A DNA stretch of 64,000 bases from Vampirovibrio chlorellavorus (lineage in GTDB: Bacteria > Cyanobacteriota > Vampirovibrionia > Vampirovibrionales > Vampirovibrionaceae), in assembly GCA_001858525.1 (NCBI GenBank), contig LAPX01000009.1:3922-67921 (forward strand), written 5' to 3'. Each line of letters opens with the position of its first letter. Position 1 is the first letter of the stretch. Below the pieces are notes generated by a model. It was not told the origin of the DNA. It saw only the letters and a program-made list of their open reading frames with translations, and ran no database searches. Shown piece by piece: positions 38,416 through 54,928 of the stretch. The position numbers and the translations under genes are program-made.

Positions 38416-39732
38416 TTACGGAAGCTTCGGGGAGGGCAGTGTTTCCAGGGCTTGTACCTGTTTTACCAGTGCGGATACTGTGCCGTCCGCCAAACGCAGC
38501 TCGAAATTTTCACCGGCTTTCAGTTGCTGCACGGAGCGAACCACCTGACCTTGGGCCGTGCTGGCCACCCCATAGCCCCGGGCCAAGGTGGTCAGTGGGT
38601 TGTAGGCATTCAACACCGAGACCGACTCGGCCAAGCCCTGTTCTTTCTTTTGAAACAGCAAATCAAAGCGAGACAGCAAACGCTCTTTCTTTTGAACCAG
38701 CTGGTGGCCGCAACTTACCAGATAACTTTGGTGCAATTCCACCATGCGGGTGGCATTTAAATCCAGGGTTTGCTCGTGATAGAGAATGACCTCTGCCATG
38801 GATTCCATCAGTTCCCGGGCCATGTTGCTCTGATTCTCGATGATGGCCTGCAAGTCGGGCACGGCCCAATCAGCGGCCGCAGTCGGTGTGGAGGCGGAAT
38901 AATCGGCGGCGGCATCGGCCAGGGCGTAATCCGGCTCATGCCCAATGCCAGTGACGACTGGAATCTGGCTTTCAAAAATGGCTCGCACCACGGGCTCTTC
39001 GCTAAAGCAGAACAGGTCTTCAAAGGAGCCGCCCCCACGTCCCACAATTAATGTATCCAGCTGGTAATGGGGATGGTTCAATTCCCGGATGGCTGCGGCG
39101 ATTTCCTGAGCGGCCCCTTCCCCTTGGACTTTGACCGGATGCAGCAAGACATCCACCATGGGGTTTTTGCGGCGAATGACCCGTAGCATGTCGTGAATGA
39201 CCGCCCCGGTGGAAGAAGTGACAATGCCAATGCGCTGGGGAAATTCCGGAATTTCCTGCTTGTACTCTTCCATAAACAGCCCTTCGGCTTCCAGTCGGGC
39301 TTTAATTTGCTGGAAGGCCAGTTGCAATGCGCCCACGCCCACCGGTTCCATTTTGCTGCCCACAATGGAGTAGCTGCCACTGGGGCGATAAATTTCCAGA
39401 CGCCCGGTGAGGTAAACCTCCAGACCGTCTTGCAGGTCAAAGGTCAGCCGATTGGCCGTGCTGGCCCATAAAATGCCGTTGATAGAGGCCCCTTCGTCTT
39501 TGAGGGTGTAGTAGACGTGCCCCCGCGAAGAGCGTTTGACGTTGGAAATTTCCCCTTGAATGACCACGGCATGGCCAAGCACCGGATGCTCGCCAATGGC
39601 CTCTTCCAACAAAGTGGTAATTTCAGAGACTGAGTAACTGCTTTTTTCATTGGCAGGGTGACCGCCCAGCAGGGCTGAAAAATCAAGTTGCTGCTGGCTT
39701 ACACTGCCTATTTTGGCTTTTCGGGGTGACAT
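38416..39732 (-). CDS. xseA: Exodeoxyribonuclease VII large subunit
   Basis: OB-fold N-terminus 'YSVSEIT..L...IG....VVIQGEISN......GH.YYTLKD' and a catalytic domain. The track ORF extends to 39816; the start is probably the internal M at 39732. Confidence 0.85.
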   Translation of the reverse strand: MSPRKAKIGSVSQQQLDFSALLGGHPANEKSSYSVSEITTLLEEAIGEHPVLGHAVVIQGEISNVKRSSRGHVYYTLKDEGASINGILWASTANRLTFDLQDGLEVYLTGRLEIYRPSGSYSIVGSKMEPVGVGALQLAFQQIKARLEAEGLFMEEYKQEIPEFPQRIGIVTSSTGAVIHDMLRVIRRKNPMVDVLLHPVKVQGEGAAQEIAAAIRELNHPHYQLDTLIVGRGGGSFEDLFCFSEEPVVRAIFESQIPVVTGIGHEPDYALADAAADYSASTPTAAADWAVPDLQAIIENQSNMARELMESMAEVILYHEQTLDLNATRMVELHQSYLVSCGHQLVQKKERLLSRFDLLFQKKEQGLAESVSVLNAYNPLTTLARGYGVASTAQGQVVRSVQQLKAGENFELRLADGTVSALVKQVQALETLPSPKLP

Positions 39733-39882
39733 TACAGTTTCTCGTACTTCTTGAGCAACTTTATGAATAGACTGGCTCCACGCAATGGATGGATTAGGAG
39801 GGATTAAACCATCCAATATGAACAGAATACTATAAAGCAGAGCCGGGTTGCTCTTTCTATGTTCAGATAATCAAGCTGACTC

Positions 39883-40515
39883 TTAGTTGTTCCATGAGAA
39901 CCAGCTCGGAAGCTGAGCCGGGTCGGCACCATAGCACCAAGGGCCGCCCCCTGCCCATTTCTGACAAGCGTTAAGGCCTGCATCACCTCGGGATGCAATG
40001 CGACCGTTATAAAACAACCAAAATTCCAGTCCTTTACCTGGGCCGTTTGTAGTGCCATCGGTGATTCTTCCATCCGGGTCAATATGGAAGTAAACCGCCC
40101 CCGTATTTGTGAGGCTCCCAAATGTGGACGGCAGGCCATAATCGACCAGGGCACCATTATGCAAACGCATGCACACCCACACATTCCCATCACAGGTCAA
40201 AGTTCCCTGCCCGTGGACACTATCAAACGTCGTGCCGGTTTCAATACGAGAGTAATTCAAATAAGGCGTCAGATCTTTGATACCGAAGGTGTCTGTGACG
40301 GTATTGCTGGCTTTGTAATTCTGATAGGCCGCGGCAACGCTGCCTACAAACTCTTTGGCAATGGCGTTGTATCGTTGATTTTGCTGGGATGAAATCAGTT
40401 TTGGGATGGTAAAAGTGGCAATTTCACCCAATATCAACAAACTGATCAGGAGTTCGGCCAAACTAAAAGCCGAGAGCTTCTGCCCCCAAACTGGGGCATT
40501 GCTGGGCAGGTTCAT
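39883..40515 (-). CDS. Type IV prepilin-like protein (class III signal; pilin or pseudopilin paralog 1)
   Basis: 'AFSLAELLISLLILGEIATFTIPK' N-methylation/cleavage-type motif with Glu at +5, Cys pairs in the C-terminal half, and an ending 'PSWFSWNN'. Confidence 0.65.
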   Translation of the reverse strand: MNLPSNAPVWGQKLSAFSLAELLISLLILGEIATFTIPKLISSQQNQRYNAIAKEFVGSVAAAYQNYKASNTVTDTFGIKDLTPYLNYSRIETGTTFDSVHGQGTLTCDGNVWVCMRLHNGALVDYGLPSTFGSLTNTGAVYFHIDPDGRITDGTTNGPGKGLEFWLFYNGRIASRGDAGLNACQKWAGGGPWCYGADPAQLPSWFSWNN

Positions 40516-40632
40516 GAACTAAAAACTCCATGAATTTATTTCACCTTCTCATGGAAGTATCGTCAAAGAGTATAAAAACTTTAATATAAAGGGAAAGATC
40601 AGGTTCAATCGGCATATACGGGATGTAAAAAC

Positions 40633-41151
40633 TTACTGATCTGACTCGATTTCCCCTTCAAATTTGAAGTCAGATGCTTTTAAATTGGATAAGAAATTTT
40701 TAAATGCTTCTGCCTCGGCCTCATCCCGTTCCTGATCGGTGGAAATGGTGCCTTCGGCCATGACGTTGGCGGTGGCAAAAATCTGCACTTTCGCTTTCAA
40801 GGCCAAGGCAATGGCATCCGATGGCCGAGCGTCAATAATGTGCTGCGTCCCATCAGGATGGTTCAGGTAGATACTGGCAAAATAAGTGTCAGAGTTGATG
40901 TCGTTGATTTCAATTTTGGTAATGCTGTAGCCCAGGGTTTCTACAATATTCCCCAGCAAGTCATGGGTCATGGGCCTAGCCGATTTGATATCTTCCAACT
41001 GCCGAATGATGGCACTGGCTTCCGCTGTACCAATCCAGATGGGCAAGGCGCGACGGTTTTCCTGATCATTTAACACCACAATGGGTGTCCCCGTGCGAGT
41101 ATCCAATGCAATACCCATCACATACAATTCTACTAGTGGTAAACTCTCCAA
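40633..41151 (-). CDS. Bifunctional nuclease family protein (BFN/DUF151)
   Basis: 'VVL.D...R.LPIWIG..EA.AI.......RP.THDL' matches the BFN family; acidic C-terminal tail. Confidence 0.7.
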   Translation of the reverse strand: MESLPLVELYVMGIALDTRTGTPIVVLNDQENRRALPIWIGTAEASAIIRQLEDIKSARPMTHDLLGNIVETLGYSITKIEINDINSDTYFASIYLNHPDGTQHIIDARPSDAIALALKAKVQIFATANVMAEGTISTDQERDEAEAEAFKNFLSNLKASDFKFEGEIESDQ

Positions 41152-41248
41152 ATCCTAGTCCTCAACAGAAACGATAAAGCCCCTTTAGTCTATAGGCTTT
41201 ATTATACTGTATATTTACTAAAATTCGGAAGTGTTACGCACGAAACTG

Positions 41249-42373
41249 CTATTTGCCCACCTGGTAGGGGGCTGGTGGCAATGAACCTACTCGATTCAGC
41301 GGCCAAATCCGGAAAACAGCCCGGCCAATGACCCGTTCATCCCGTGCAAATCCCCAATAGCGACTATCCAGACTCTGATTTCGATTATCCCCCATCATGT
41401 AGTACTGACCTGCGGGGATTTTAATGGGACCACAATAAGGCTCCGGTTTAACCAGTGTACAGGTGGCTCCAATTTCATTGACATAGGGCTCATCCAGCTT
41501 TTTGCCGTTCACCCAGACACCTTCTCCAGGGATCACTTCCACCGTATCGCCGGGCAGTCCAACCAGGCGCTTGATGTAAGCCACATCAATGTAGTCATCT
41601 TTTTTGTAAAGCAGGCCCGAAAAACCAGTCCATCGCAGAAACAGGCTGACCGGATCTTTCTTCAGTTGACTCATGGGGGGATAAAAAACCAGAATATCGC
41701 CTCGCTGGTATGGACGCTTCCATCGGGTGACCCGCTCAATCACCAGGCGGTCATTGACTTGTAAGCCAGGCAACATGGATTCGGATGGAATGAGTCGAAG
41801 TTCGCCAATAAAACTTTTAATCACAATCAGGAAAAACAGGACAAAAGCCACCACTTCCATAAGCTCTTTGGCCAGAAACAATGCGGTGTTGCGACCCTGT
41901 TTCTGCCGAACCCGGATCAGGCTGTTGTCGATTTTCTCTGGGGAAATTTGAAATTTTTGGGTGGCCTGCACGAGGACTGGATCGCTGGAAAGGCAAAATG
42001 CTTTCAGCAAATGCTCTACATCCACCAGCACGTTTTTGGTGCCGGTAATCGCGGCATAACTTTTTGCCAGAGACTCGGCAGAGGCCAGCAGACTTTCGTT
42101 TTGGGCAGGAGAAGAGCCTGCAGCGGATTGCTTCAATACTTTGCCAAGTCCGCCGGGTGAAGCGTGCAATTCTTTCAGTAAGCTGTCCAGCCGATTGAAC
42201 GGACGATGGGTCATTAACAGGGCCTGAAAATAAAGGCGCTCGGTGGGCTTGGACAGTCCTGCTTTTTTGGCCAACTTGCTTGCCAGATGGATGGCGTCTT
42301 TCACGTCTTCGGAATAACGAACGGTTTCCAAGTAAAAATCCTCGTGAGGCCCAAAAAACAAGCTGCCACTCAA
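41249..42373 (-). CDS. lepB: Signal peptidase I (S26) fused in-frame to an N-terminal double Clp_N (Clp R) domain
   Basis: C-terminal half: TM segment, 'SESMLP' (SxSMxP) and 'GDNRNQSLDSRYWG'. N-terminal 180 aa: two Clp_N-like repeats ('VDVEHLLKAF...') alignable to the ClpB N-domain in this window. There is no stop codon between them. Confidence 0.65.
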   Translation of the reverse strand: MSGSLFFGPHEDFYLETVRYSEDVKDAIHLASKLAKKAGLSKPTERLYFQALLMTHRPFNRLDSLLKELHASPGGLGKVLKQSAAGSSPAQNESLLASAESLAKSYAAITGTKNVLVDVEHLLKAFCLSSDPVLVQATQKFQISPEKIDNSLIRVRQKQGRNTALFLAKELMEVVAFVLFFLIVIKSFIGELRLIPSESMLPGLQVNDRLVIERVTRWKRPYQRGDILVFYPPMSQLKKDPVSLFLRWTGFSGLLYKKDDYIDVAYIKRLVGLPGDTVEVIPGEGVWVNGKKLDEPYVNEIGATCTLVKPEPYCGPIKIPAGQYYMMGDNRNQSLDSRYWGFARDERVIGRAVFRIWPLNRVGSLPPAPYQVGK

Positions 42374-42400
42374 GTTGGTAGCAGCGTTCTCATTCTAATA

Positions 42401-43924
42401 TCAGTCTGTTGAAATCTCAATGCAATTTCCATCCCGACGACGCGCGGCACTCAGGGCATTTTCCGTAGCCCGAATGAGGGAGGACACCGAGGTATGTCTT
42501 TCGCTTAAAGGCACAACCCCGGCACAGACAGTCAGACTCAAGGTAGTGTCTTGCCACACCATGGATGATTTTTCCACGCGATCCCGAAACCGTTCCAATG
42601 CTACAAACGCTTGCTCTCTGGCGGTTTGTGGCAATAAAACAGCCAGACTTTTACTGCTGTAACGGGCCAGGAAATCAATGCCCCGGAAACTTTCTTCCAG
42701 AATGTGGGAGATATGTTGCAAGGCCTGATCGCCACAAGCATGGCCCCATTCTTCATTCAATTCCCGGAATCGATCCAGACCGTTCATGGCCAAGGCCAAA
42801 TTCTGCTCGTAGCGTTTGGCCGATTTAAACTCTCGTTGCAAGACAGTCATAAAGTGCTTGTGGTTGAACAAGCCGGTCAAACTGTCGGTAATGGCCCACA
42901 TTTGTGCCTGAGAGTACAAATGGCGCAGCTTCATCAACAGGCGTATCTCGTCTTCCACCAGGTGCACGGGGAAAATTTTAGCGTAATCCACCTTTTGCTT
43001 GGCGAAAAAGGCCACTGACCCAATCAGGCCCGCATCCAGATGAAAATCTTTGACATAAACCGTTTCATAATCGGTGGGGGGGGCTTCCTCGTCCAGTTGT
43101 CCGATCACCTGCGATTCCTGCAGTTCCAACTGGGCATCGGTCAAGCCGCGTGCTTTAAAGCGTTCAAAAAAACTTTCCATCAGTTGCTCTATATGAGTAC
43201 TCGGTTGCTTTTCCCCTTCCGGCAAGTGAAATGTCAGAATGCGTGGCCCTTTGTCGGTATCGTTGTAGAAAATGGCCGCCGCATCGTATTCCAAAATACT
43301 TTCCAGCAAGCTGAAAAACATGTAGTTCATCAAATCGGTGTCATGTACCAAATCAGACAAACTACGGAATTCCACCATCAACATGGATTCCACCAAGGAG
43401 GTGTCCAGTATCTGATTCAGGCGGGTGCGGATATTGAATGGATTCTGAGCGTTGTTGGCCTTCAGCAGCAACTTTTCCTGGATATTCATGCGGTCATAAA
43501 TTTCCAGTACCATCTGGGTTTTTTGCAGCAGTTTGGCTTCGACTTCGTCTTTGCCTAAAAAGTCATCGGCTCCGGCCTTCATTCCCCAGAAACGATCCAT
43601 CTTCAGTGCCTGCTCGGCAATTAGCAGGGTGGGGATCTTGCGCATGACCGGATCATTTTTGACCAGTCGGCAAATCTGATAACCATTTAATTCCGGGGTG
43701 GCGCTCCCGGCCAAAATCATGTCCGGAATGAGTCGATAGACTTTCTGGATGCCTTCAGTGCCATCCAGGGCGTAATCGATATCATAACCGTGCTTTTCCA
43801 GCGCCAGACGACAGGCATTGACCACCAATTCGTCCTGATGAATCACCAGAACCAGCGCTTTACCTTGTTGCGCGGGCTGATTTAACTGCTCTGGATTAGT
43901 ATTACTCTCTGAAAACACGTTCAC
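42401..43924 (-). CDS. Response-regulator receiver (REC) domain protein with a degenerate, probably inactive GGDEF domain
   Basis: REC 'LVLVIHQDE...' N-terminus. The GGDEF-domain core 'DSLTGLFNHKHF...' is present, but the signature reads 'RYSSKSLAVLLP' instead of RxGGEEF. Confidence 0.7.
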   Translation of the reverse strand: MNVFSESNTNPEQLNQPAQQGKALVLVIHQDELVVNACRLALEKHGYDIDYALDGTEGIQKVYRLIPDMILAGSATPELNGYQICRLVKNDPVMRKIPTLLIAEQALKMDRFWGMKAGADDFLGKDEVEAKLLQKTQMVLEIYDRMNIQEKLLLKANNAQNPFNIRTRLNQILDTSLVESMLMVEFRSLSDLVHDTDLMNYMFFSLLESILEYDAAAIFYNDTDKGPRILTFHLPEGEKQPSTHIEQLMESFFERFKARGLTDAQLELQESQVIGQLDEEAPPTDYETVYVKDFHLDAGLIGSVAFFAKQKVDYAKIFPVHLVEDEIRLLMKLRHLYSQAQMWAITDSLTGLFNHKHFMTVLQREFKSAKRYEQNLALAMNGLDRFRELNEEWGHACGDQALQHISHILEESFRGIDFLARYSSKSLAVLLPQTAREQAFVALERFRDRVEKSSMVWQDTTLSLTVCAGVVPLSERHTSVSSLIRATENALSAARRRDGNCIEISTD

Positions 43925-44226: not shown

Positions 44227-46896
44227 ATGGACAGCTTGGACACCCAGCCATTTGAAGAGTACCCGGTGTATGATTCCATACAAGGGCTAGTTTCCGTGGG
44301 GGAGCCTGAGGACGGGTTGAGTCCATTTGCCTCAGGAGCGCCGTCGGCACGACAGGCACCCGTTTCTAAAGCCCGTAATCTGTATGATCAAGGGGTGCTG
44401 TCTAATTTCAAAAAGAATACTGATGAGGCTTTGTCCTGTCTGGAACAAGCCTATGGTCTCTTTTTACAGGAACATCATTACCTGGGGGCCATTGAGTGTC
44501 TGGTGGAGCTGGCTTGGCTGAAGTATAACAGTGGTTCCTCGGATGCTGTGCATAAATCGGCCCGGCTCTTCTCGGAAGCCCTTAAGATGATCAACGTGCA
44601 CATGCACGAGGTCGGCATAAACGAGGTTCGGGCCCGCTTGCTTCACTATCAGGGGTTGGTCAAGTATCGGGAAAAGCGTTTTGGCGAGGCGGTCAAGCAT
44701 TTTATGTACGCCCGCACCTTCTGTCACCCGGATGGCATGGAGTCTGCCCGCATTCTGGATAGTCTAGCCGTTCATTATGAGCATACCAACGATTACTACC
44801 GGGCCATTCAGTGCCTGCAAAAGGCTTTGGAAATAAAGCAACAAGCGGGTTGCGAGTCTGAGCAGGCTGTCAGTTGCCAAATCATTGGTCGGATTTACAT
44901 CCTGCGGGAAGAGTATCCGCAGGCGGAACGATTTTTGAATCAGGCCCTGCAAATTTCAGTGACGCTTCAGGATGCTTATCGTTGCGCTCGGATTAAAAAC
45001 GATTTGGTCAGACTGAGCATTTATCAGGGGCATTTTGAACAAGCGCAAGGCTTGATTGCCCAGCTGGAAGCTGAATGTACGGACAAGCACATGCGAATTC
45101 CCTTTGGGAAGAGCCAGTTTTACAAGGCCTACATTTATTACAGCCAGCTTCGCTTTGGAGAGTCTCAACAATTACTGGAAACCGAGGTGCTGCCCATTTT
45201 TAAACGGCAGCGCTACCGCAAGGGCTTTGCTATGGCCAGCCGGTTATTGGCTTGTTTGCACTATCAGGGTGGGCAAGGGGCTCGTGCCATCGAAGAAATG
45301 AGTGAAGTGATCGCCATCTTTAAAGAAGAGGGTAGTATCACGGAACTGGCCAAGACTTACTTCGAGCTGGGCAAGATTTATTTGTCTTTAAATGAGCCCA
45401 AGCTGGCCTTGGCCAGTATGCTGGAGTCTCTGCGCATTGCCGAAAGCAACGGGCTCAGCTTTATTATCAGCCACATTGAAGATGAAATTTTCCGGCTGGA
45501 TGAGCGGAAATGGCAGGAAATTGTCGAGAAGCGGGCCAATCACGACCGGGTTTTTGAAAAAGATCTCAACCTGATGGATGCCCTGGAGGCTTTGTCAGAG
45601 CAACCGGAACAACCGGCGCAAAACCAGAGCCAAAATCCCAACCAACGGCTGGTTTCGCTGTTGCGGGTTGGGCAGGCCATGTCCGCCGAACGGGATTTGG
45701 AAAAGCTGCTGACCTTGATTAAAAGTGAAACCGAGCAGGCCCTGGATGCGGAGCGCTGTACGGTATTTTTGTACGATCGGGATAATAATGAGCTTTGGTC
45801 TAAAGTGGCTACCGGCCTGGAAACCAGCGAGGAAATCCGTTTTCCGGCCCATTTGGGATTGGCAGGCTATGTGGTCAAAACCGGAGAAGTCCTGAACATC
45901 AAGGATGCCTATGACGATCCCCGGTTTAACCAGGATATCGATAAAAAAACCGGGTATCGCACCCGAAATATTTTGTGTTTGCCCATGCGCAACCGCAAGA
46001 TGGAGATCATTGGGGTTTTTCAGGTTCTGAATAAAAGGGTTTCCCACTTTGATAAGGTGGATGAAGACCTGCTAACGGCTATTTCGACCAATGCCGGGGT
46101 GGCCCTGGAAAACGCCACACTAGCCAAAGAGATGAAAATCTCCTTTGACAGTTTTGTTAAAACGCTCTCCAGCACCATTGACGCCCGAGATCCCATCACG
46201 GCGGGTCATTCCGAGCGGGTGGCCGAGTACTCTGTACTGCTGGGCGAAGAAATGGAAATGCAGCAAGATGAGTTAGAGGCACTCAAGTACGCTTCGCTGC
46301 TGCATGACATCGGCAAAATTGGCATTCAGGAGGATATTCTGAAAAAAGACGGGCGCTTGACCGAGAAAGAGTACCGTCACATCCAGAAGCATGTGTACTA
46401 TACCCACGAGATCCTGAAAAACGTTCACTTTGAGCGCCATTTGCAACTGGTGCCAGAGATCGCCGCCTCTCATCATGAGAAAATGGATGGCAGTGGCTAT
46501 CACCGGGGCCTGCAGGGGCAGGAAATTTTATTGTCCGGGCGGATTTTGGCCATTTCCGATGTCTTTGACGCCATTACTTCCCGCCGGCATTACCGGAACC
46601 GGATGGCCTTCGACAAGGTGCTGACCATTATGAAACGGGATGCCGGAACCCACTTTGATCCAGAGTGTGTGGATGCCTTTTTTAATATCCCCTTGTCCCG
46701 ATTGGGTGTGGTCTTGCTCATGGATCGGGGGAACGGGGTGGATGAGGAGGGCATGATTCTGGTGGATCAGCTGGACTCTGTTATCACCGTCGGAGAGTAT
46801 TACAAATGCCTGAACAAAGAGGCCATGAGTAAAGGGGAAGCGGATGTGCATCGGGTTTTTAGCAACTTGTACCACTTCACCGGAAAAATAGACTAA
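44227..46896 (+). CDS. TPR-repeat, GAF and HD-GYP domain protein (c-di-GMP phosphodiesterase-like; GYP motif reads GYH)
   Basis: TPR-like helical N-terminal half, a central GAF domain, and a C-terminal 'HDIGKIGI...HHEKMDGSGYHRGL' HD-GYP domain. Confidence 0.8.
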   Translation: MDSLDTQPFEEYPVYDSIQGLVSVGEPEDGLSPFASGAPSARQAPVSKARNLYDQGVLSNFKKNTDEALSCLEQAYGLFLQEHHYLGAIECLVELAWLKYNSGSSDAVHKSARLFSEALKMINVHMHEVGINEVRARLLHYQGLVKYREKRFGEAVKHFMYARTFCHPDGMESARILDSLAVHYEHTNDYYRAIQCLQKALEIKQQAGCESEQAVSCQIIGRIYILREEYPQAERFLNQALQISVTLQDAYRCARIKNDLVRLSIYQGHFEQAQGLIAQLEAECTDKHMRIPFGKSQFYKAYIYYSQLRFGESQQLLETEVLPIFKRQRYRKGFAMASRLLACLHYQGGQGARAIEEMSEVIAIFKEEGSITELAKTYFELGKIYLSLNEPKLALASMLESLRIAESNGLSFIISHIEDEIFRLDERKWQEIVEKRANHDRVFEKDLNLMDALEALSEQPEQPAQNQSQNPNQRLVSLLRVGQAMSAERDLEKLLTLIKSETEQALDAERCTVFLYDRDNNELWSKVATGLETSEEIRFPAHLGLAGYVVKTGEVLNIKDAYDDPRFNQDIDKKTGYRTRNILCLPMRNRKMEIIGVFQVLNKRVSHFDKVDEDLLTAISTNAGVALENATLAKEMKISFDSFVKTLSSTIDARDPITAGHSERVAEYSVLLGEEMEMQQDELEALKYASLLHDIGKIGIQEDILKKDGRLTEKEYRHIQKHVYYTHEILKNVHFERHLQLVPEIAASHHEKMDGSGYHRGLQGQEILLSGRILAISDVFDAITSRRHYRNRMAFDKVLTIMKRDAGTHFDPECVDAFFNIPLSRLGVVLLMDRGNGVDEEGMILVDQLDSVITVGEYYKCLNKEAMSKGEADVHRVFSNLYHFTGKID

Positions 46897-47034: not shown

Positions 47035-47286
47035 TTAGGTTGACTTGAACCGTCGGGACTTGTCGTTGGCTGGCGGGGTGTCAAGCGTGTCGGGCTTGTC
47101 TACCACTTGCAAATGCCGTTTGAATTCAACGTAAAAGCCACAGTTCTTGACCTGAACATCACCGTCCAAATGAGCGACCCCTACGGCCAGGGCTTCCAGC
47201 AGCGGACACATGACGCCTTTGAGAAAGTACTCGCAGGAGTAACACTGGTCTTCTTCTTCAATATGGACGTGACCATCGTAGTACAT
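47035..47286 (-). CDS. Hypothetical small Cys-containing protein
   Basis: ORF only; 'CYSCEY...C...C'. Confidence 0.3.
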   Translation of the reverse strand: MYYDGHVHIEEEDQCYSCEYFLKGVMCPLLEALAVGVAHLDGDVQVKNCGFYVEFKRHLQVVDKPDTLDTPPANDKSRRFKST

Positions 47287-54286: not shown

Positions 54287-54928
54287 TTGTTTGAGAGGAT
54301 TAGCATGAGAATTCGGAAAGCAAAAAACTTTTGGACGGGTTTTACCTTATCCGAATTATTGGTTTCTTTGCTGATTTTGGGAGAAATCGCCACCTTCACC
54401 ATTCCTAAAATCCTGAGTGCCCAGCAAAATGGTCAAAACAATGCCAGGGCCAAAGCGGTGGCCGCTATGCTTTCCGAGGCGTTTAATATTCACAAGCTGA
54501 ATGGCTTGGTGACCGCCAGCACCCGGACAACCGATTTAACCCCTTACATGAACTATCTCTCGTATGATACGACTTCCGGCAGGGCGGTAGACTATATTCC
54601 TCGGTATTCTTATTATTTCACATGTAGTAGTGCTTACCCCTGTCTGGATCTGCCGGGCGGAGGGGTTTTAATGTTGTTGAATAATTGCTTCTTGGGGGGG
54701 ACCAGTAGCCTGAATTATCTGGATTTTCTCTATGACCCAGATGGTACCTTCAACGGAGATTACACGGTCAATACTTTTAATGGCCAAGGTAAGTCCATCT
54801 ATTTTGCACTGTACGCTAATGGCTTTTTGACTACCCGGAACAATATGAAAAGTGGCAGTGTGCAAGGTGGTTGTGCCGGGACTACCGGACCTGGGACAGG
54901 CTTCGATCCGGGTTGGTTTGAGTGGTAA
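54287..54928 (+). CDS. Type IV prepilin-like protein (paralog 2)
   Basis: 'TGFTLSELLVSLLILGEIATFTIPK' with a canonical G-F-T-L-x-E. Ends 'GFDPGWFEW', similar to the paralog at 39883-40515. Confidence 0.65.
   Translation: MFERISMRIRKAKNFWTGFTLSELLVSLLILGEIATFTIPKILSAQQNGQNNARAKAVAAMLSEAFNIHKLNGLVTASTRTTDLTPYMNYLSYDTTSGRAVDYIPRYSYYFTCSSAYPCLDLPGGGVLMLLNNCFLGGTSSLNYLDFLYDPDGTFNGDYTVNTFNGQGKSIYFALYANGFLTTRNNMKSGSVQGGCAGTTGPGTGFDPGWFEW

What the first reader, a model, noticed from the sequence alone, without database searches (positions are those of the whole stretch)
39883..43924. Co-directional block: REC-degenerate GGDEF regulator, Clp_N-fused signal peptidase I, bifunctional nuclease and prepilin-like protein
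Four minus-strand genes with short gaps look like an operon. It begins with a response regulator whose GGDEF signature is degraded to SSKSL. The second gene encodes a signal peptidase I whose N-terminal 180 aa form a double Clp_N (Clp R) domain alignable to the ClpB N-domain, an architecture I do not recognise as described. A BFN nuclease and a type IV prepilin-like protein follow. The combination suggests a dedicated secretion/processing or surface-filament module under c-di-GMP-type control.
Basis: partly seen in the sequence, partly recalled or inferred. Interest (0 to 1): 0.65.

Follow-up and report, generated by a model that had tools for sequence, protein, structure and literature searches.

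The report
Signal peptidase carrying a Clp N-domain
A Vampirovibrio-type bacterium encodes a normal-looking secretion signal peptidase that carries, on its cytoplasmic side, the adaptor-docking domain otherwise known from Clp/Hsp100 chaperones; this undescribed fusion is kept throughout the order next to c-di-GMP signalling genes, while the neighbouring pilin-like gene is an unrelated insertion.

Summary
All four minus-strand genes exist. The response regulator has SSKSL in place of GGDEF. The LepB gene encodes one continuous protein: a double-repeat Clp N-domain, one transmembrane helix, then an intact S26 catalytic domain.

The window's own N-domain is below Pfam's threshold. A homologue profile, an AlphaFold model (pLDDT 90) and Foldseek all point only to ClpC/ClpB/Hsp104 N-domains. 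dN/dS is about 0.17.

The fusion is the standard LepB of the order Vampirovibrionales. It is absent from other Vampirovibrionia orders and from photosynthetic cyanobacteria. No paper describing it was found.

Corrections:
- The true start is TTG 42331, giving 360 aa.
- The pilin-like gene is absent from all ten syntenic relatives. It belongs to a scattered multi-copy family and is not an SPase I substrate.
- A 12-nt promoter-like element conserved after the regulator's stop codon suggests lepB has its own promoter.

The conserved unit is HD-GYP (divergent), then pseudo-receiver/degenerate GGDEF with an intact I-site, then ClpN-LepB, then DUF151/BFN. The regulator pair and BFN are each present at 11 of 15 fusion loci.

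The most likely role of the Clp N-domain is a cytoplasmic docking platform that ties signal-peptide processing to a partner. That mechanism is inferred, not shown.

The parts
42401..43924 (-). Pseudo-receiver / unknown ~190-aa middle domain / degenerate GGDEF protein. SSKSL replaces GGDEF; the I-site RGID is intact; the phospho-acceptor Asp is replaced by Gly.
   Evidence: Pfam REC 25-135 and GGDEF 344-500. PleD is the best solved relative. Motif table for 10 orthologues.
42392..42420 (-). Promoter-like TTGAGA-17-TAGAAT overlapping the regulator's last codons. The 12-mer TGATATTAGAAT (stop codon plus a -10-like box, 42392-42403) is invariant in six relatives.
   Evidence: Function is inferred, not shown.
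42352..42385 (-). Terminator-like hairpin (8 bp, 5 GC) followed by TTGTTTTTT, between the regulator gene and the real lepB start. It contains the spurious TTG 42373.
   Evidence: z = -1.8 in the window; not significant in relatives.
41870..42331 (-). lepB codons 1-154: cytoplasmic double-repeat Clp N-domain (8 helices).
41810..41869 (-). lepB codons ~155-174: single transmembrane helix, continuous with the last N-domain helix. A K/R-rich N-flank gives an N-in topology.
   Evidence: Full-length AF2 helix 145-188 in 374-aa numbering. Sequence.
41249..41809 (-). lepB codons 175-360 plus stop: periplasmic S26 catalytic domain. Ser185/Lys254 (360-aa numbering) and the GDNRNQSLDSRYWG box are intact.
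40633..41151 (-). DUF151/BFN-domain protein, 172 aa, no UVR motif detected. It is the most persistent neighbour of ClpN-lepB.
   Evidence: Literature.
39883..40515 (-). Type IV prepilin-like gene. It is a lineage-specific insertion of ~750 nt and NOT part of the conserved unit.
44227..46896 (+). Divergently transcribed TPR-GAF-HD-GYP protein (predicted c-di-GMP phosphodiesterase). The GYP motif reads GYH.
   Evidence: HD_5 130 bits, GAF 67 bits. Synteny.
47035..47286 (-). 83-aa four-Cys protein of unknown family, tail-to-tail with the HD-GYP gene. Possible fifth member of the cluster; uncertain.

Best explanation
SHOWN.
- The window is from a Vampirovibrio-like genome (order Vampirovibrionales, non-photosynthetic Cyanobacteriota).
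- Its lepB encodes one polypeptide: a ~150-residue double-repeat Clp N-domain, one transmembrane helix continuous with the last N-domain helix, and a type I signal peptidase domain with all catalytic boxes intact.
- This fusion is the order-wide form of LepB and is under purifying selection.
- In most members it sits in a fixed cluster: a TPR-GAF-HD-GYP gene (divergent), a pseudo-receiver/degenerate-GGDEF protein that keeps the RxxD I-site, ClpN-lepB, and a DUF151/BFN gene.

INFERRED.
- The periplasmic domain cleaves Sec signal peptides as any SPase I does.
- The Clp N-domain stays in the cytoplasm, pressed against the membrane. As in ClpA/B/C, it acts as a docking platform for a protein partner rather than as part of an unfoldase.
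- The best candidates for that partner are the two conserved cytosolic neighbours. One is the DUF151 protein, whose plant relatives co-purify with the Clp_N-bearing chaperone CLPC1. The other is the c-di-GMP-receptor-type GGDEF protein.
- Signal-peptide processing, or its location, would then be coupled to the cell's c-di-GMP state.

The pilin-like gene is an unrelated insertion. lepB probably has its own promoter.
For: - Domain content and catalytic residues: S199 and K268 invariant in 30 sequences; alignment to solved SPases.
- Clp N-domain.
- Continuous helix into the membrane anchor.
- Translation and selection: N-domain dN/dS 0.16-0.17 at dS ~0.97, against 0.02-0.03 for the catalytic part.
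- Distribution: 119 of 120 best homologues have both domains. Only ~20 of the 150 best 50%-identity clusters hit by the N-domain profile are fusions; the rest are stand-alone or multi-repeat Clp_N proteins.
- The fusion is present in Vampirovibrionales loci. It is absent from Obscuribacterales, Gastranaerophilales and photosynthetic cyanobacteria.
- Synteny: hd/rr upstream in 11 of 15 fusion loci and bfn downstream in 11 of 15. This includes loci at 42-52% LepB identity whose outer flanks differ.
- Receptor-type regulator: the GGDEF third-position acid is lost in 9 of 10 orthologues, RxxD is kept in 10 of 10, and the acceptor Asp is lost in 7 of 10.
- DUF151-Clp link: Arabidopsis DUF151+UVR proteins UVR2/3/4 are selectively enriched on CLPC1-TRAP (PMC8889267).
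- The only bacterial DUF151 protein tested, Mtb Cor, is a dimer without nuclease activity (PMC3870250).
Against: - No interaction, c-di-GMP binding or peptidase activity was tested; the whole docking step is inference.
- Four of 15 fusion loci lack the regulator pair, and four of 15 lack bfn as a neighbour (three loci lack both). The loci are not phylogenetically independent, so the synteny could be inherited gene order.
- CLPC1-TRAP enrichment may reflect substrates in the pore rather than N-domain binders, and the window's BFN protein lacks the UVR motif of the plant proteins.
- No Clp_N-BFN or Clp_N-GGDEF fusion turned up among the 258 proteins held.
- The N-domain evolves 5-8 times faster than the catalytic domain.
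- I could not check whether these genomes carry a second, plain LepB.
Confidence: 0.5

Rival explanations
1. The fusion is real, but the neighbourhood is only inherited gene order. The Clp N-domain works on its own, for example by binding cytosolic parts of preproteins or phospho-arginine, by mediating LepB oligomerisation or polar localisation, or by recruiting a Clp adaptor encoded elsewhere.
For: - In close relatives the synteny also covers clearly unrelated genes: accA-like, xseA, xseB, glpK.
- Three fusion loci (L004, L006, L011) have none of the neighbours.
- Clp_N is a promiscuous module found in many non-ATPase architectures.
- A conserved promoter-like element separates lepB from the regulator gene.
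Against: - The four-gene core survives where the outer flanks have been replaced (L005, L007, L012, L091).
- lepB-HD-GYP adjacency recurs in a second order with a different arrangement (17 loci).
- lepB-bfn persists in L014 at 42% identity.
Confidence: 0.3
2. This LepB is a specialised paralogue dedicated to a particular set of secreted (for example predation-related) substrates. A plain housekeeping LepB is encoded elsewhere in the genome.
For: Many bacteria carry several SPase I paralogues (established knowledge). Tandem lepB duplicates are seen in related Obscuribacterales-type and cyanobacterial loci.
Against: - The catalytic domain is very strongly conserved (dN/dS 0.02-0.03; 94-96% identity to close relatives).
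- Its closest non-fusion relatives are the ordinary LepBs of other Vampirovibrionia and cyanobacteria.
- No second S26 gene lies in the 64-kb window.
Confidence: 0.2
3. One reading: a four-gene operon forming a dedicated secretion or surface-filament module that includes the prepilin-like protein, under c-di-GMP control.
For: The genes are co-directional with 69-117 nt gaps. c-di-GMP genes are present. c-di-GMP is known to control type IV pili in other bacteria (established knowledge).
Against: - The pilin gene is absent at this position in all ten syntenic relatives.
- Its family is scattered, with solitary copies beside housekeeping genes, including a second copy at 54287-54928.
- Prepilins need a PilD-type peptidase, not SPase I.
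- No pilus or secretion genes are nearby.
Confidence: 0.05
4. The N-terminal 150-180 codons are an untranslated leader, or an artefact of a frameshift or misassembly, and LepB starts near MEVVAFVLFF.
For: A direct Pfam scan of the window protein finds no N-terminal domain.
Against: - The same continuous ORF occurs in independent assemblies.
- dN/dS is 0.16-0.17.
- The AF2 model has pLDDT 90 with a Clp N fold.
- A start at MEVV would leave the TM helix without its positively charged N-flank.
Confidence: 0.01

Closest known systems
Bacterial type I signal peptidase (S26A; E. coli LepB, S. aureus SpsB, Bacillus SipS-type)
   Same: Ser/Lys dyad boxes, the GDNR..S.DSR box, an N-in membrane anchor and a periplasmic catalytic domain. 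Scores are far above the family cut-offs.
   Different: About 150 residues of folded cytoplasmic Clp N-domain precede the anchor. Described LepBs have only short tails or extra TM segments there. Gastranaerophilales relatives instead carry a different ~230-aa extension with two more TM segments.
N-domain of ClpC/ClpB/ClpA/Hsp104 (double Clp repeat, PF02861)
   Same: The same eight-helix pseudo-dimeric fold (TM 0.53-0.71 across the top 50 Foldseek hits) and profile-level sequence homology across both repeats. In those chaperones it docks adaptors and substrates (established knowledge).
   Different: No AAA+ modules follow it. It is fused through a helix to a membrane anchor. It has family-specific invariant residues (R57, F59, D63 in ORF numbering) and is sub-threshold for Pfam in this genome.
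Stand-alone Clp_N proteins (plant ClpT1/T2; mycobacterial ClpC2; multi-repeat Clp_N proteins)
   Same: Clp_N used outside an unfoldase as a binding module. The ClpC2 C-domain is among the Foldseek hits. CLPT1/2 are listed with the CLP system. Multi-repeat, TIR- and UVR-linked forms also occur.
   Different: Those proteins are soluble and act with Clp proteases. Here the domain is tethered to a Sec-pathway peptidase.
Degenerate-GGDEF c-di-GMP receptors (Caulobacter PopA, Pseudomonas PelD); PleD as the closest solved structure
   Same: REC plus GGDEF architecture with a lost catalytic motif and a retained RxxD I-site. PopA is an adaptor for Clp-dependent proteolysis (from my own knowledge).
   Different: There is one pseudo-receiver plus an unassigned ~190-aa middle domain instead of REC-REC. 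c-di-GMP binding is untested. PopA works with ClpX, which has no Clp_N domain.
LapD-LapG inside-out control of a periplasmic protease by c-di-GMP (Pseudomonas)
   Same: Works-like analogy only: a degenerate c-di-GMP receptor on the cytoplasmic side governing a periplasmic protease (from my own knowledge).
   Different: No homology. LapD is itself the transmembrane protein and LapG is a cysteine protease. Here the protease carries its own cytoplasmic domain.
DUF151/BFN proteins (Mtb Cor/Rv1829; Arabidopsis UVR2-4/BBD1-2)
   Same: PF02577 domain at 130 bits. Small cytosolic protein.
   Different: No UVR motif. The nuclease label rests on plant proteins; Cor showed no nuclease activity. Adjacency to a Clp_N-bearing gene has not been reported.

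Membership tests
Type I signal peptidase (S26A) | Family HMM above the curated cut-off | tested here: met
   PF10502 136.1 bits (cut-off 22.9); TIGR02227 138.8 bits (cut-off 47).
Type I signal peptidase (S26A) | Nucleophile Ser (S-x-S-M box) and general-base Lys (Y-I-K-R..G.PGD box) | tested here: met
   IPSESM and YIKRLVGLPGD. S199 and K268 (ORF numbering) are invariant in 30 homologues and align to the same boxes of solved SPases.
Type I signal peptidase (S26A) | Box E GDNR..S.DSR | tested here: met
   GDNRNQSLDSRYWGF; invariant G328, D329, N330, R331, S334, D336, R338.
Type I signal peptidase (S26A) | Membrane anchor N-terminal to the catalytic domain, with the catalytic domain outside | tested here: met
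   Hydrophobic helix EVVAFVLFFLIVIKSFIG with a K/R-rich N-flank. AF2 gives a continuous helix 145-188. The topology itself is predicted, not measured.
Type I signal peptidase (S26A) | Cleaves Sec signal peptides | not testable with these tools
   Needs an enzyme assay or complementation of an E. coli lepB(ts) strain.
Clp N-domain (double Clp repeat, PF02861) | Pfam model above the gathering score | tested here: not met
   The window's N-domain gives 15.4 bits against 20.7 (E 0.021) and no hit in the full-protein scan. At family level, 20 of 24 homologues hit (best 1.3e-9), and about half of the top hits carry a precomputed PF02861.
Clp N-domain (double Clp repeat, PF02861) | Profile homology spanning both repeats to solved Clp N-domains | tested here: met
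   Profile A2 against the PDB: 4iod HSP101/ClpB2 N-domain E 1.3e-10, profile positions 15-143 on chain 21-146. Nearly all further hits are ClpC/ClpB/Hsp104/ClpA.
Clp N-domain (double Clp repeat, PF02861) | Eight-helix pseudo-twofold fold | tested here: met
   AF2 pLDDT 90.1 with 8 helices. The Foldseek top 50 are all Clp-family N-domains, TM 0.53-0.71.
Clp/Hsp100 AAA+ unfoldase | AAA+ nucleotide-binding module(s) after the N-domain | tested here: not met
   Only a TM helix and an S26 domain follow. This is not a Clp chaperone.
Diguanylate cyclase (GGDEF) | GG[DE]EF active-site motif | tested here: not met
   SSKSL in the window. Nine of 10 orthologues lack the third-position acid.
Degenerate-GGDEF c-di-GMP receptor | Intact RxxD I-site five residues before the motif | tested here: met
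   RGID in the window; R and D invariant in 10 of 10 orthologues.
Degenerate-GGDEF c-di-GMP receptor | Binds c-di-GMP | not testable with these tools
   Needs a DRaCALA or ITC assay.
Response-regulator receiver | Phospho-acceptor Asp and acidic Mg pocket | tested here: not met
   The acceptor position is Gly in 7 of 10 orthologues, including the window. The acidic pair is absent in 10 of 10. The fold-level Pfam hit is present at 46.9 bits.
HD-GYP phosphodiesterase | HD_5/HD domain with the HD and GYP motifs | tested here: inconclusive
   HD_5 129.9 bits. HD is present (LLHDIGK), but the GYP motif reads GYH (HHEKMDGSGYHRGL). Activity was not tested.
BFN/DUF151 (PF02577) | Family HMM above the cut-off | tested here: met
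   130.3 bits against 27.
BFN/DUF151 (PF02577) | DNase/RNase activity | not testable with these tools
   Plant BBD proteins are reported active, but Mtb Cor was inactive. The 'nuclease' name should not be taken as a function here.
Type IV pilin-like protein | Class III signal peptide: short leader, G/A at -1, F+1, E+5, hydrophobic helix | tested here: met
   MNLPSNAPVWGQKLSA|FSLAELLISLLILGEIATF, with Ala at -1. N_methyl is below the cut-off here (13.6 against 21.2), but many family members carry PF07963.
Operon RR-lepB-bfn-pilin | Single transcript | not testable with these tools
   Only consensus scans are available: a promoter-like and a terminator-like site lie between RR and lepB. RNA-seq or 5'-RACE is needed.
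Operon RR-lepB-bfn-pilin | Conserved gene order across relatives | tested here: not met
   RR-lepB-bfn is conserved in 10 of 15 fusion loci (RR in 11, bfn in 11). The pilin gene is present only in the window.

The most novel reading that the evidence does not exclude
The cytoplasmic Clp N-domain of LepB is the docking site for the adjacent DUF151/BFN dimer and/or the c-di-GMP-loaded degenerate GGDEF protein. Signal-peptide cleavage at the Sec translocon would then be switched or relocated by c-di-GMP. That would be an 'inside-out' control of a periplasmic protease built from parts never seen together. It would also assign DUF151 a general role as a Clp-N-domain ligand, in line with its enrichment on plastid CLPC1.
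Probability: 0.15. Interest if true: 0.8.

Novelty: new variant of a known kind. Interest (0 to 1): 0.58.

Why it matters
Type I signal peptidase is an essential, well-studied enzyme and an antibiotic target. It is thought of as an unregulated membrane-anchored protease.

A version with a folded cytoplasmic adaptor-docking domain, fixed across a whole order of predatory non-photosynthetic cyanobacteria and embedded in a c-di-GMP gene cluster, suggests that signal-peptide processing can be regulated or positioned from inside the cell.

It also offers a simple bacterial system for asking what Clp N-domains bind when no unfoldase is attached. The same system could test whether DUF151 'bifunctional nuclease' proteins, which are unexplained CLPC1 interactors in chloroplasts, are Clp-N ligands.

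Tried and rejected
- Direct Pfam and NCBIfam scans of the window LepB gave no Clp_N hit. Profile and fold evidence were needed instead.
- The listed TTG 42373 start was rejected in favour of TTG 42331.
- The hairpin after the regulator gene is not significantly stable in relatives, so I do not claim a conserved terminator. Only the 12-mer is conserved.
- The N-domain alignment was too variable for a metagenome pattern scan.
- The AFDB Foldseek library was unavailable.
- The exact-match look-up of the window's pilin protein found no contig on record.
- A search for Rosetta-stone fusions of Clp_N with BFN, GGDEF or HD-GYP among the 258 proteins held found none.
- The bfn-xseA intergenic alignment gave no clean insertion boundaries or flanking repeats for the pilin gene.
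- Three literature searches found no paper on the fusion.
- The DUF151 hits in bioRxiv 10.1101/072470 were all for DUF1513 and therefore irrelevant.
- I considered reading the conserved acidic residues (E45, E120) as ClpC-like phospho-arginine sites. I did not pursue it, because the same residue is common to Clp_N repeats generally and I could not superpose structures.

Full report
**What is there.** Between 39883 and 43924 the minus strand carries four ORFs.

- 42401-43924 (507 aa) has a receiver domain (E 3e-12) and a GGDEF domain (E 1e-31).
- 41249-42373 has Peptidase_S26 (136 bits) and NCBIfam signal peptidase I TIGR02227 (138.8 bits against a cut-off of 47).
- 40633-41151 (172 aa) is a BFN/DUF151 protein (130 bits).
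- 39883-40515 (210 aa) has a readable class III (prepilin) signal sequence. Its family hits are sub-threshold (N_methyl 13.6 bits; ComGE E 6e-7).

The co-directional run does not stop there. xseA, xseB and glpK follow on the same strand. Upstream, a TPR-GAF-HD-GYP gene (44227-46896) is transcribed divergently. The best homologues are signal peptidases of Vampirovibrio chlorellavorus and other Vampirovibrionales (85-87% identity).

**The Clp N-domain claim.** A direct Pfam scan of the window protein finds nothing N-terminal at E<=0.1. The isolated N-terminal piece reaches only 15.4 bits against a gathering score of 20.7. The claim is nevertheless right, on five lines of evidence.

- An alignment of 30 homologues shows a conserved ~150-residue N-terminal region in all of them.
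- 20 of 24 such N-domains hit Clp_N individually, the best at 1.3e-9.
- A profile of the region searched against all PDB sequences returns almost exclusively Clp/Hsp100 N-domains. It is led by Plasmodium HSP101/ClpB2 (E 1.3e-10) with an alignment covering both repeats.
- An AlphaFold model of the region has pLDDT 90.1 and eight helices.
- Its 50 best Foldseek matches in the PDB are all N-domains of ClpC, ClpC1, ClpB, Hsp104, HSP101, ClpC2 or ClpV, with TM 0.53-0.71.

In the full-length model the last N-domain helix runs without a break into the membrane helix, followed by the S26 fold. The K/R-rich segment before the hydrophobic helix places the N-domain in the cytoplasm (read from the sequence).

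**Not a leader, not a frameshift.** The same continuous ORF is found in 119 of the 120 best database homologues; the exception is a 220-aa fragment. It is also found in 14 further genomic loci. Against the two closest relatives the N-domain has dN/dS 0.16-0.17 at dS ~0.97. It is therefore translated and constrained, although it evolves 5-8 times faster than the catalytic part (0.02-0.03).

The start needs correcting. The first 14 codons of the listed ORF coincide with a hairpin and T-run. Homologues begin METVRY. A GAGGA sits 8 nt before TTG 42331. The protein is therefore 360 aa.

**The enzyme looks active.** The Ser and Lys boxes and the GDNR..S.DSR box are invariant in 30 homologues. They align to the corresponding boxes of solved signal peptidases.

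**Distribution.**
- With the N-domain profile, 962 cluster representatives score E<=0.001 among 1.84 billion. Of the best 150, about 20 are ClpN-S26 fusions. The others are stand-alone or multi-repeat Clp_N proteins, some fused to TIR or UVR.
- In one genome per species, full-length matches come from Vampirovibrionales MAGs. They also come from two contigs labelled as filamentous cyanobacteria that carry the whole Vampirovibrio-type cluster, which is probably mis-binning.
- One Vampirovibrionales LepB (L013) has a longer, very divergent extension with only a weak match.
- Obscuribacterales LepBs have short N-termini.
- Gastranaerophilales LepBs have a different ~230-aa extension with two extra membrane segments.
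- Photosynthetic cyanobacteria have plain LepBs.

The fusion is therefore an order-level character. Three literature searches found no description of it, and public records name the proteins simply 'signal peptidase I'.

**The neighbourhood.** Of 15 loci with the fusion (the window plus 14), 11 have the GGDEF regulator directly upstream and the HD-GYP gene divergent from it. Eleven have the BFN gene directly downstream.

- In close relatives the synteny also covers accA-like, xseA, xseB and glpK, which shows plain inherited order.
- At 42-52% LepB identity (L005, L007, L012, L091) the outer flanks are replaced while the core stays.
- In L014 only lepB-bfn remains.
- Three loci (L004, L006, L011) have none of the neighbours.
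- In Obscuribacterales-type genomes, a plain lepB is directly followed by a GAF-HD-GYP gene in 17 loci.

The lepB/HD-GYP association is therefore older than, and independent of, the fusion.

**The regulator.** Across 10 orthologues the GGDEF motif reads SSKSL (three times), GGK[NYSQ]L (four times), GGRSI, GSRSV and, once, GGEEL. The RxxD I-site is kept in all ten. The receiver's acceptor Asp is Gly in seven, and the acidic pocket is missing in all. PleD is the closest solved structure, and about 190 residues between the two domains match nothing. This is the signature of a c-di-GMP receptor rather than a cyclase or a phospho-relay protein, but binding is untested.

**The pilin-like gene is not part of the unit.**
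- It is absent between bfn and the next gene in all ten syntenic relatives. These include the two closest, where bfn and xseA are 146-190 nt apart against ~900 nt here.
- Apart from an identical record from the source genome, its best homologue is 53% identical.
- The family is Vampirovibrio-specific and multi-copy. In another genome its copies lie singly among housekeeping genes.
- A second copy lies in this window at 54287-54928, next to a biotin-ligase gene.
- No pilus or secretion machinery is encoded within about 10 kb on either side.
- Prepilins are matured by PilD-type peptidases, not by SPase I (established knowledge).

**Transcription.** A TTGAGA-17-TAGAAT match overlaps the end of the regulator gene. 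Its core, TGATATTAGAAT (stop codon plus a -10-like box), is identical in six relatives whose synonymous sites are saturated. It occurs nowhere else in the 170 loci held or in the window. In the window it is followed by an 8-bp hairpin and a T-run, but the hairpin is not significant in relatives. I read this as a probable lepB promoter, so the 'operon beginning with the regulator' is doubtful. Only transcript mapping can settle it.

**How it most likely works.** Shown: the architecture, intact catalytic boxes, selection, distribution and the conserved neighbours. Inferred: the periplasmic domain does ordinary signal-peptide cleavage, while the cytoplasmic Clp N-domain serves as a docking surface, which is the role of this fold in ClpA/B/C.

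Two cytosolic neighbours are the obvious candidates.
- The DUF151 protein is the most persistent neighbour. Three Arabidopsis DUF151+UVR proteins are among the most selectively enriched interactors of the Clp_N-bearing chaperone CLPC1 (PMC8889267). The only bacterial DUF151 protein tested, M. tuberculosis Cor, is a dimer with no nuclease activity (PMC3870250). The 'nuclease' label should therefore not guide interpretation.
- The degenerate GGDEF protein would bring c-di-GMP dependence. That resembles in logic, though not in homology, LapD-LapG control of a periplasmic protease, and PopA's adaptor role (both from my own knowledge).

Against this: nothing was tested biochemically. Synteny among related genomes is weak evidence. 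TRAP enrichment may mark substrates. The window's BFN lacks the UVR motif. No Clp_N-BFN or Clp_N-GGDEF fusions were found in the small set I could scan.

**Verdict.** The noteworthy item is a new variant of a known enzyme: a type I signal peptidase with a cytoplasmic Clp N-domain, fixed in Vampirovibrionales and embedded in a c-di-GMP/DUF151 cluster. The pilin and the four-gene 'module' should be dropped.

Noticed in passing
window 47035-47286 (-): An 83-aa protein with four invariant Cys and no family match. It is 100% identical to the V. chlorellavorus copy although the neighbouring LepB and regulator are only 85-89% identical. It stays tail-to-tail with the HD-GYP gene in L001, L002, L003, L007 and L008, even where the outer flank differs.
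   Followed up: partly
window 42392-42403 (-); L001 6931-6942, L002 6906-6917, L003 6922-6933, L008 6929-6940, L009 4147-4158, L010 7925-7936: The 12-mer TGATATTAGAAT sits directly at the regulator's stop codon. It is invariant in the window and six relatives and unique within 170 loci. It is probably the -10 region of a lepB promoter.
   Followed up: partly
window 54287-54928 (+): A second member of the same prepilin-like family: 35% identity, a near-identical N-terminal helix and a canonical Gly at -1. It lies alone after a biotin/lipoate ligase gene.
   Followed up: partly
L024, L026, L030, L044, L045, L054, L061, L071, L102, L103, L108, L109, L112, L114, L128, L129, L140: In Obscuribacterales-type genomes a plain lepB (no Clp_N) is directly followed by a GAF-HD-GYP gene orthologous to the C-terminal half of the window's HD-GYP protein (~450 bits). 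This is a second, differently arranged lepB/HD-GYP linkage.
   Followed up: partly
L020 7302-8696, L021 7281-8678, L022 7317-8681, L028 7281-8642: Gastranaerophilales LepBs carry a different ~230-aa N-terminal extension with two extra hydrophobic segments and no Clp_N similarity.
   Followed up: no
window 42401-43924 (-), residues ~150-340 of the regulator: A conserved ~190-residue middle domain between the pseudo-receiver and the GGDEF domain matches no Pfam family or solved structure by sequence.
   Followed up: no
window 44227-46896 (+): The HD-GYP protein has GYH instead of GYP (HHEKMDGSGYHRGL). In Xanthomonas RpfG the GYP motif is implicated in binding GGDEF proteins (from my own knowledge). 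I did not check relatives.
   Followed up: no
L009 (DATNQC010000368.1, 'Oculatellaceae') and L010 (DATNPJ010000040.1, 'Coleofasciculaceae'): Contigs in MAGs labelled as filamentous photosynthetic cyanobacteria carry the complete Vampirovibrio-type cluster at 61% LepB identity. This is probably mis-binned Vampirovibrionales DNA.
   Followed up: no
P0122, P0143 (proteins): Proteins built from four or more Clp N-domains fused to a C-terminal TIR domain; one also has an AAA lid. They resemble defence-type architectures.
   Followed up: no
window 38416-39816 (-): The listed xseA ORF is over-extended. Relatives and the alignment place the start at the ATG near 39732 (MSPRKAK...), about 28 codons downstream.
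   Followed up: partly
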